In this document: positions 10,290 through 10,583 of the stretch, one piece after another
Numbering within the stretch: position 1 is the stretch's first letter
Layout: every line of letters starts with the position of its first letter
Assembly: GCF_013122565.1 (NCBI RefSeq)
Contig: NZ_CP053258.1
From: Escherichia coli
GTDB lineage: Bacteria; Pseudomonadota; Gammaproteobacteria; Enterobacterales; Enterobacteriaceae
Strand: one strand, 5' to 3'
Length of the DNA stretch: 64,000 bases
Notes under the pieces: generated by a model
Told to the model about the DNA's origin: nothing
Seen by the model: the letters and a program-made list of their open reading frames with translations, nothing else
Database searches by the model: none
Program-made: the position numbers and the translations under genes

Positions 10290-10583
10290 ATGCGTCTCCC
10301 GGAGTGGAATGCGGTCGAAGTTATCATACCACTTTATTTATGGGTATGCCATGGGGGGGGTTATTACTGGTATTTATATAAAGTTAATACATATATGTAA
10401 TTTGTATCTTTATAAATTCCTAATTTTTAGCACCTTCCATTGATGGATTTCATATTTTTCAGTAGGTTAAGAGCTGTTCTGTTAAATATAATTTATATCA
10501 TCAATAGATTATTGTTTTGACATTTGCCCCCTCAATCAATTTAATGCACGCATTCGGTAACTTTCGTAAAAGAAAATATCATT

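What the first reader, a model, noticed from the sequence alone, without database searches (positions are those of the whole stretch)
10353..10360. G8 homopolymer in the shared upstream region of exuR and the fimbrial operon
A run of eight G (catGGGGGGGGtta) lies 64 bp upstream of the exuR start and about 225 bp upstream of the fimbrial chaperone start. Homopolymers of this length are prone to slipped-strand mispairing, so tract length could modulate a promoter or operator and give ON/OFF switching of the fimbriae or altered exuR expression.
Basis: seen in the sequence. Interest (0 to 1): 0.45.

Follow-up and report, generated by a model that had tools for sequence, protein, structure and literature searches.

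The report
Variable G-run beside exuR promoter
A run of eight G's between the exuR repressor gene and an E. coli fimbrial operon is real and differs by one base between related strains, but it lies outside both likely promoters and looks like an ordinary slippage-prone repeat, not an on/off switch.

Summary
The G8 run is at 10353-10360, 64 bp from the exuR start codon and 224 bp from the fimbrial chaperone start codon. One such run in 64 kb is no more than chance gives. The operon is the known E. coli alpha-type fimbria cluster eafABCD, which sits between exuT and exuR.

Only one small sublineage has the homopolymer. The window, and an identical independent read assembly, have G8. Two other strains, 0.4-0.6% diverged, have G7. 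More distant carriers of the operon have GGTGGTT, GGTAGTT or unrelated sequence there. So the run is recent and its length does vary. However, an A8/A7 run elsewhere in the same 22 kb varies in the same way.

The run starts one base upstream of the -35 hexamer of the only sigma-70-like exuR promoter, and 156 bp upstream of the -35 of a conserved eaf promoter. No length from G4 to G12 places it in a promoter spacer. The distance between the two -35 elements already ranges from 161 to 164 bp among strains.

My reading is a neutral or weakly modulating polymorphic mononucleotide repeat. An ON/OFF switch is not supported. Interest is low.

The parts
10353..10360 (.). G8 homopolymer (C8 in the exuR sense). 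G7 in two related lineages; not a homopolymer in all other carriers of the operon.
9513..10289 (-). exuR, a GntR/FCD-family repressor of hexuronate genes
   Evidence: Pfam GntR 1.2e-22 and FCD 6.6e-21; annotated as exuR in E. coli genomes
10323..10352 (-). Putative exuR promoter: -35 ATGGCA (10352..10347), 18-nt spacer, TGn-extended -10 TATGAT (10328..10323). The -35 directly abuts the run.
   Evidence: Only sigma-70-like site next to the run. The segment is conserved up to GCCA(T) in every locus, then diverges. No TSS has been mapped, so this is inferred.
10321..10331 (.). ExuR-operator-like box TTAT-CAT-ACCA, a 7/8 match to the FadR-subfamily TKGT-N3-ACMA pattern, overlapping the -10. K-12 has the perfect TGGT-ATA-ACAA at the homologous place.
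   Evidence: Read from the sequence; motif definition from PMC4494728. Inferred, no binding data.
10517..10545 (+). Putative eaf operon promoter: TTGACA-17-TTTAAT (11/12 to consensus), 156 bp downstream of the run
   Evidence: The scan tool does not list it because it requires A at position 2 of the -10. Inferred.
10584..11285 (+). eaf periplasmic chaperone (PapD_N)
   Evidence: homologues
11285..11812 (+). CS1-type major fimbrial subunit (other assemblies call the start at 11312)
   Evidence: Pfam Fimbrial_CS1 4.3e-23; gene calls
11896..14598 (+). TcfC/CooC-type usher (other assemblies call the start at 11914)
   Evidence: Pfam Usher_TcfC 8.7e-64 and TcfC 5e-20; exact protein found in four contigs
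14595..15689 (+). CblD/CfaE-like minor subunit (pilus initiator or tip protein)
   Evidence: Pfam CblD 5.6e-101
15776..17074 (-). exuT hexuronate transporter (432 aa as called in relatives; the mechanical ORF runs to 17194)
   Evidence: MFS_1; annotated exuT in L001 and K-12; 98.7% identical to K-12

Best explanation
The G8 run is a young mononucleotide repeat restricted to one sublineage. It sits at the seam between the conserved exuR core promoter and the fast-evolving upstream region of the eaf alpha-fimbrial operon. It probably arose by T-to-G changes in a G-rich heptamer (GGTGGTT to GGGGGGG, same length) and then gained one G by slipped-strand mispairing in the window's lineage. It behaves like other long runs in E. 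coli non-coding DNA: it gains or loses a base now and then and is not maintained by selection. It is not a phase-variation switch. At most it weakly tunes exuR transcription, because the C-run occupies about -37 to -44, where a proximal UP element would lie, and shifts the AT-rich DNA upstream by one base. Shown: presence, position, length polymorphism, lack of conservation, position relative to consensus promoter elements. Inferred: the promoter assignments, the order of mutational events, neutrality.
For: 1. Distribution of the run. G8 in the window and in L024, which is 100% identical to the window over 16.8 kb. G7 in GCA_018578885.1 (L019/L023) and its Logan twin L020, and in GCA_052983875.1 (L022). 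These lineages differ by 92-135 SNPs per 22.7 kb.
2. Outgroups with the same (type-A) promoter allele read GGTGGTT (L016, L017), GGTAGTT (RMDEC465) and TGTGATT (MOD1-EC7003). Type-B alleles, E. coli W among them, read TGCTGAT, TGTTCAT or TGGTCAT.
3. Other runs vary among the same three lineages: A8/A7 at 23953 and T4/T3 at 15711. Of the five longest runs in the shared 22.7 kb (A/T 8 or more, G/C 7 or more), two vary.
4. The only sigma-70-like site near the run is the exuR candidate, and the run is outside its spacer. No length from G4 to G12 creates a promoter that spans the run.
5. The eaf promoter candidate is conserved in both allele types, 156 bp from the run. The -35 to -35 spacing already varies from 161 to 164 bp among loci.
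6. Indel rates in E. coli rise exponentially with run length, and 8-bp G.C runs are hot-spot outliers in K-12 (PMC8510543). So a +/-1 difference at G7/G8 is expected without selection.
7. There is no GATC and no long inverted repeat in the intergenic region.
Against: 1. Between the window and GCA_018578885.1 the run is the only difference across window 9000-12000. This fits elevated mutability, which a contingency locus also needs.
2. Three T-to-G changes within 7 bp that create a perfect run could be read as selection for a repeat.
3. The run touches the -35 of exuR, so an effect on promoter strength cannot be excluded.
4. No transcription start sites, read-level data or expression data were available.
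5. Only three independent lineages carry the run, so its rate of variation is poorly sampled.
Confidence: 0.72

Rival explanations
1. The run is a functional contingency or tuning locus. Changes in its length heritably alter transcription of exuR (by moving upstream AT-rich, UP-like DNA or an activator site relative to the -35) or of the eaf operon (by changing the helical phasing of an upstream regulatory site or H-NS filament relative to the eaf promoter). This would give variable fimbriation or hexuronate regulation.
For: The run length differs (G7 vs G8) among close lineages while the surrounding 3 kb is identical. The run directly abuts the exuR -35. It lies in the shared control region of a fimbrial operon, a gene class that is often phase-variable. 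Homopolymer indel rates rise exponentially with length (PMC8510543).
Against: It is not in any promoter spacer at G4-G12. It is 156 bp from the eaf -35. The repeat is absent from all other eaf carriers, including close type-A alleles. The inter-promoter spacing varies naturally from 161 to 164 bp. Eight G's is short for a switch in a mismatch-repair-proficient E. coli. The A8/A7 run at 23953 varies equally. No activator site is known.
Confidence: 0.15
2. The G7/G8 difference is a sequencing or assembly error in a homopolymer, so no real polymorphism exists.
For: Homopolymers are classic error sites. The window also lacks one C in the exuT terminator stem relative to all relatives. L024 may derive from the same strain, or even the same reads, as the window.
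Against: G8 is reproduced in the Logan assembly of SRR11451224, along with every other base over 16.8 kb. G7 is reproduced in two assemblies of one strain and in a third strain. The window shows only 2-3 single-base indels against relatives in about 22 kb, with 92-135 SNPs, so it is not an error-ridden assembly. The 28 runs of 6 or more bases in the shared region are otherwise identical in length, except the A8 at 23953.
Confidence: 0.05
3. The run is a translational phase-variation tract in a small ORF. An ATG at 10351 is followed directly by the run and opens a 30-codon ORF (10351-10443, MGGVITGIYIKLIHICNLYLYKFLIFSTFH) that G7 would truncate to 9 codons.
For: The ATG-G8 arrangement and an open frame in the G8 form can be read directly from the sequence.
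Against: The ORF is broken in the G7 lineages. It is 3 codons long in L016/L017, and RMDEC465 and MOD1-EC7003 have no ATG. There is no convincing Shine-Dalgarno sequence. It overlaps the exuR -35. An AT-rich peptide of this kind is expected from AT-rich DNA.
Confidence: 0.02

Closest known systems
Polymorphic mononucleotide repeats in E. coli non-coding DNA (described by Gur-Arie et al. 2000 and Diamant et al. 2004; cited from my own knowledge, not found in the paper library)
   Same: A short run (7-8 bases) in an intergenic region, differing by +/-1 between strains, not conserved as a repeat over longer distances, with no known function. The run-length dependence of indel rates in E. coli is stated in PMC8510543.
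   Different: Nothing essential. This particular run has not been described, and it touches the -35 of the putative exuR promoter.
Homopolymer-driven transcriptional phase variation of surface structures: Bordetella pertussis fim2/fim3 poly-C, Neisseria opc/porA poly-C/G, Haemophilus hifA/hifB TA repeats (own knowledge; B. pertussis tracts reviewed in PMC1891110, listed)
   Same: A G/C homopolymer in the control region of a fimbrial operon with divergent promoters. The length changes by slippage.
   Different: In those systems the tract lies within the -10/-35 spacer or between an activator site and the core promoter. It is usually longer (about 9-15 or more) and is conserved as a repeat across strains. 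Here it is outside both spacers, is 7-8 long, and is confined to one sublineage.
[quoted passage not shown] 2011, PMC3032704)
   Same: Same chromosomal position and gene content: chaperone, CS1-type subunit, TcfC-type usher, fourth gene.
   Different: The window carries the rarer type-A allele of the promoter and signal-peptide segment. Only 1 of 5,426 complete E. coli genomes matches it over at least 80% of the query, at 87% identity. The paper says there is no tip adhesin gene, but the fourth gene here scores 5.6e-101 against Pfam CblD and is listed as CfaE_2nd.
Classical E. coli fimbrial switches: fimS inversion by FimB/FimE, and Pap-type Dam/Lrp methylation switches (own knowledge)
   Same: They control fimbrial operons from an upstream intergenic region.
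   Different: There is no GATC site anywhere in 10200-10700, no inverted repeat longer than 10 nt in 10250-10650, and no recombinase gene next to the operon.

Membership tests
Slipped-strand (homopolymer) transcriptional phase-variation switch | Repeat tract long enough to be hypermutable | tested here: inconclusive
   8 G's (7 in relatives). This is the extreme of the G/C run distribution in the window, and 8-bp G.C runs are indel hot spots in K-12 (PMC8510543). It is still shorter than most proven switches (own knowledge).
Slipped-strand (homopolymer) transcriptional phase-variation switch | Tract lies in the -10/-35 spacer, between an activator site and the core promoter, or in a coding frame | tested here: not met
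   Not in any sigma-70-like spacer for G4-G12. It is 156 bp upstream of the eaf -35. The only ORF over it is not conserved. Activator sites are unknown, so that sub-case was not testable.
Slipped-strand (homopolymer) transcriptional phase-variation switch | Tract length varies among closely related strains or within a culture | tested here: inconclusive
   G8, G7 and G7 in three lineages 0.4-0.6% apart, and the same length in duplicate assemblies of one lineage. Within-culture variation needs reads and could not be tested.
Slipped-strand (homopolymer) transcriptional phase-variation switch | The repeat is maintained across lineages that carry the regulated locus | tested here: not met
   All other eaf carriers examined lack the run: L001-L005, L009-L018.
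Slipped-strand (homopolymer) transcriptional phase-variation switch | Expression changes with tract length | not testable with these tools
   Needs promoter fusions or RNA measurements.
Neutral polymorphic intergenic mononucleotide repeat | Non-coding location, +/-1 unit differences among strains at a frequency similar to other runs, no long-term conservation | tested here: met
   Intergenic. The A8/A7 run at 23953 and T4/T3 at 15711 vary in the same three lineages. The repeat is absent in outgroups.
Eaf alpha-type (class 5 / alternate chaperone-usher) fimbrial operon | Located between exuT and exuR, with a chaperone, a CS1-type subunit, a TcfC/CooC-type usher and a CblD/CfaE-type minor subunit | tested here: met
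   Pfam hits, synteny, and the naming in PMC3032704.
Pap-type Dam/Lrp methylation switch | Paired GATC sites in the fimbrial regulatory region | tested here: not met
   No GATC in 10200-10700.
fimS-type invertible promoter | Inverted repeats flanking a promoter segment, plus a site-specific recombinase | tested here: not met
   Only four 10-nt, 90% complementary arm pairs, as expected in AT-rich DNA. No recombinase ORF lies beside the operon.

The most novel reading that the evidence does not exclude
The run is a newly born tuning knob in a divergent control region. Each one-base change shifts the AT-rich upstream DNA relative to the exuR -35 and changes the helical phasing between the exuR and eaf promoters. 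This would heritably and reversibly reset ExuR repressor level and/or Eaf fimbriation. It would be a rare case of homopolymer-based expression variation arising de novo in a mismatch-repair-proficient E. coli.
Probability: 0.1. Interest if true: 0.45.

Novelty: new member of a known kind. Interest (0 to 1): 0.15.

Why it matters
As it stands it matters little. It is one more polymorphic homopolymer in E. coli non-coding DNA, useful at most as a strain marker within a rare eaf type-A lineage. If run length did change exuR or eaf expression, it would be an example of a contingency locus caught at birth (GGTGGTT to G7 to G8) in a species that normally uses DNA inversion or methylation for fimbrial phase variation. 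It would also link fimbriation to the hexuronate regulon. The by-products may be more useful: the eaf control region exists as two very different alleles with fixed breakpoints, yet both keep the same promoter hexamers and the same promoter-to-promoter spacing.

Tried and rejected
1. Exact-protein look-ups of the window's 175-aa subunit, its tip protein, and P0085 and P0018 found nothing on record.
2. A metagenome scan with both flanks and a variable gap gave 0 hits. A second scan with the left flank plus G6 returned 120 chance matches, none in the exuR context.
3. The genome-contig scan with the chaperone gave only 5 loci at about 80% identity, none with the run.
4. An Rfam scan of 10150-10750 gave one hit far below threshold (Avalong thermometer, 18 bits against a gathering score of 154, E = 0.64). 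I treat it as noise.
5. The small-ORF reading (ATG followed by G8) is rejected for lack of conservation.
6. The idea that TGGTAT/ATACCA half-sites flanking the run form a split ExuR operator is rejected. The right half-site is not conserved in RMDEC465 or MOD1-EC7003, and the two inverted-repeat pairs have different centres.
7. A Pap-type or fimS-type switch is rejected: no GATC and no long inverted repeats.
8. Literature on the exuR start site or the ExuR box: the key papers (Tutukina 2016; Suvorova 2011, PMC3147527) are not held. Only the general FadR-subfamily motif could be cited.

Full report
**Observation.** The window reads ...ggtatgccatGGGGGGGGttattactgg..., with eight G's at 10353-10360. 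It is the only G/C run of 8 or more in the 64 kb. Dinucleotide-preserving shuffles give 1.46 such runs on average, and 71 of 100 shuffles have at least one, so its mere presence is not beyond chance. G/C runs in the window number 164, 32, 5, 2 and 1 for lengths 4 to 8. The stated distances are correct. exuR (9513-10289, minus strand; GntR + FCD domains) starts 64 bp to the left. A PapD-type chaperone ORF starts with GTG at 10584, 224 bp to the right.

**Context.** To the right of the 294-bp intergenic region lie four plus-strand genes:
- a chaperone (10584-11285);
- a CS1-type major subunit (11285-11812);
- a TcfC/CooC-type usher (11896-14598);
- a CblD/CfaE-like minor subunit (14595-15689).

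These are followed by exuT on the minus strand. This is an alternate (alpha, class 5) chaperone-usher operon inserted between exuT and exuR. K-12 lacks it and has only 129 bp between exuT and exuR. The cluster was named eafABCD, "E. coli alpha-type fimbria", in the E. coli W genome paper (PMC3032704). E. coli W and many other E. coli carry it at the same place.

**Related sequences.**
- Of 5,426 complete E. coli genomes, 5,422 match the exuR part of the query. Only one, RMDEC465, matches through the intergenic region, at 87% identity.
- A genome scan, a protein search and exact-protein look-ups gave 24 loci.
- All loci share the sequence from the exuR start codon up to ...GGGTATGCCA(T), ending at window 10352, and then diverge.
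- Two allele classes of the segment from 10353 to about 10650 exist. This segment covers the eaf control region and the chaperone signal peptide.
- Type A is found in the window, L008/L019-L024, L016/L017, RMDEC465 and MOD1-EC7003.
- Type B is found in E. coli W, L003-L005 and L009-L015. It is barely alignable with type A.

**The run across relatives.** At the position of the run the sequences read as follows.

| Sequence | Allele | Reads |
|---|---|---|
| Window | A | GGGGGGGG |
| L024 (Logan assembly of SRR11451224; 100% identical to the window over 16,778 bp) | A | GGGGGGGG |
| GCA_018578885.1 (L008/L019/L023) and its Logan twin L020 (SRR11451197) | A | GGGGGGG |
| GCA_052983875.1 (L022) | A | GGGGGGG |
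| L016, L017 | A | GGTGGTT |
| RMDEC465 | A | GGTAGTT |
| MOD1-EC7003 | A | TGTGATT |
| Type-B loci | B | TGCTGAT, TGTTCAT, TGGTCAT |

- The three run-bearing lineages differ from one another by 92-135 substitutions per 22.7 kb, so they are separate strains.
- Between the window and GCA_018578885.1 there is no substitution in 9000-12000. The run is the only difference there.
- The simplest history is GGTGGTT to GGGGGGG by three T-to-G changes with no change in length, then +1 G in the window's lineage.
- The homopolymer is therefore young, confined to one sublineage, and has changed length at least once.

**Is the polymorphism exceptional?** No.
- Among the same three lineages the A8 at 23953-23960 is A7 in both others.
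- A T4 at 15711 is T3 in L022, and the window lineage lacks one C in the exuT terminator stem at 15737.
- Of the five longest runs in the shared region (G8, two A8, two C7), two vary.
- PMC8510543 states that indel rates in E. coli are an exponential function of run length, and that 8-bp G.C runs are outlier hot spots in K-12.
- A +/-1 difference at G7/G8 is what mutation alone predicts.

**Sequencing error is unlikely.** G8 and G7 are each reproduced in separate assemblies, and the window shows only 2-3 single-base indels per 22 kb against its relatives. L024 may come from the window's own strain, so its agreement shows that reads support G8, not that a second strain has it.

**Position relative to control elements.**
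- The promoter scan finds one sigma-70-like site next to the run, on the minus strand: -35 ATGGCA (10352..10347), 18-nt spacer, -10 TATGAT (..10323) preceded by TG.
- This site points at exuR. It lies in the block conserved in all loci, and its -35 ends exactly where conservation ends. K-12 keeps the corresponding TGgTATAAC.
- Overlapping the -10 is TTAT-CAT-ACCA (10321-10331). This is a 7/8 match to the TKGT-N3-ACMA pattern given for ExuR-type FadR-subfamily regulators (PMC4494728). K-12 has the perfect TGGT-ATA-ACAA. This fits autoregulation of exuR but is an inference.
- The run therefore begins one base upstream of the -35, at roughly -37 to -44, outside the spacer.
- I rebuilt the region with G4 to G12 and rescanned both strands. 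No length creates a promoter whose spacer or hexamers include the run.
- On the plus strand the best eaf promoter is TTGACA (10517-10522), 17 nt, TTTAAT (10540-10545). It is 11/12 to consensus and about 32 nt of leader ahead of the GTG. The scan tool does not list it because it demands A at position 2 of the -10.
Type A and type B share little else in this segment, so this is good evidence that it is the operon's promoter.
- The run ends 156 bp upstream of that -35.
- The distance between the two divergent -35 elements is 161-164 bp in all loci: type B 161-163, type A 163, window and L024 164. So one or two bases of spacing change occur naturally without the run.

**Other switch types.** The region 10200-10700 has no GATC. 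The region 10250-10650 has no inverted repeat longer than 10 nt. No recombinase gene lies beside the operon. Rfam gives only noise. An ATG at 10351 followed by the run opens a 30-codon ORF in the G8 form. That ORF is cut to 9 codons in G7 and to 3 in L016/L017, and has no ATG in RMDEC465 or MOD1-EC7003. It is not a gene.

**Interpretation.** The statement that the run is prone to slippage is supported by the G7/G8 difference. The proposed ON/OFF switching is not supported, for four reasons:
- the run is outside both promoter spacers;
- it is far from the eaf promoter;
- it is absent from nearly all carriers of the operon;
- it is no more variable than an A8 run nearby.

The best explanation (about 0.7) is a neutral or nearly neutral polymorphic mononucleotide repeat that formed recently at the edge of the exuR promoter. 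A weak effect on exuR is conceivable, because the C-run replaces A-rich sequence where a proximal UP element would lie: relatives read AAACCACC or AAACTACC there and the window reads AACCCCCCCC, and each added base shifts the AT-rich DNA beyond it. I give a functional tuning or phase-variable role about 0.15, pure artefact about 0.05, and the small ORF about 0.02.

**Comparison with known systems.** The run works like, and qualifies as, one of the polymorphic mononucleotide repeats long known in E. coli non-coding DNA (from my own knowledge; I could not retrieve those papers). It resembles the promoter homopolymers of Bordetella fim2/fim3, Neisseria opc/porA and Haemophilus hif only in being a repeat near a fimbrial promoter. 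It fails two defining features that could be tested: position within or next to the spacing-critical part of a promoter, and maintenance of the repeat across strains. The operon itself is the known Eaf cluster.

**Verdict.** This is a real feature and an ordinary kind of thing, with low interest (0.15). The decisive tests are read-level run-length distributions in SRR11451224 and SRR11451197, a tree-wide survey of run length in this sublineage, start-site mapping, and G6-G10 reporter fusions in both directions.

Noticed in passing
window 10353-10650 (compare L013-L015, L018, L004, L005): The eaf control region and chaperone signal peptide exist as two barely alignable alleles (type A, type B). 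The breakpoints are sharp, at 10352/10353 and about 10647-10651, and the DNA on both sides is 96-98% identical. Both alleles keep TTGAC[A/T]-N17-T[T/C]TAAT and a 161-164 bp distance between the exuR and eaf -35 elements. This looks like a recombined regulatory cassette under spacing constraint.
   Followed up: partly
window 23953-23960: An A8 run (T8 in the sense of the gene) lies 18 bp upstream of the start of the TerC-family gene (22970-23935, minus strand). It is A7 in both related lineages (L022, L023), the same kind of polymorphism as the G-run.
   Followed up: partly
window 15727-15760 (gap at 15737): The hairpin between the eaf tip gene and exuT reads GAAGCCGC-TGATA-AGGCGGCTTC in the window and L024. 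It is one C short of the perfect stem GAAGCCGCC...GGCGGCTTC seen in L019-L023, with the same GCCGCC...GGCGGC core in K-12.
   Followed up: partly
window ~15766 (L022 13853-13866): A 7-bp unit, ACGTTAA, at the 3' end of exuT (stop codon TAA and last codons, reverse complement) is present in an extra tandem copy in GCA_052983875.1 relative to the window and L023.
   Followed up: no
window 14595-15689: The fourth eaf gene scores 5.6e-101 against Pfam CblD (pilus biogenesis initiator) and is listed as CfaE_2nd in other assemblies. The paper that named eafABCD states that the cluster lacks a tip adhesin gene.
   Followed up: no
window 10584-10655: Public annotations start the chaperone at internal codons (209, 218 or 230 aa), which cuts off part or all of the signal peptide (V)KCIKVPFILACILFFWSIPGQA. 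The GTG at 10584 gives the full 233-aa precursor.
   Followed up: partly
window 1910-2138: A 78-bp unit repeated 2.9 times in tandem (97% matches) contains REP-like palindromes (GCCGGATGCG...CGCATCTTATCCGGCCTAC). It is probably a BIME/REP array.
   Followed up: partly
window 10290-10352 versus K-12 (L007 3524-3652): The exuR leader and promoter of eaf-carrying strains is strongly diverged from K-12. Only the block around the -10/operator, GTTAT(C)ATACCACTTT, is clearly shared, although exuR itself is about 97% identical.
   Followed up: no
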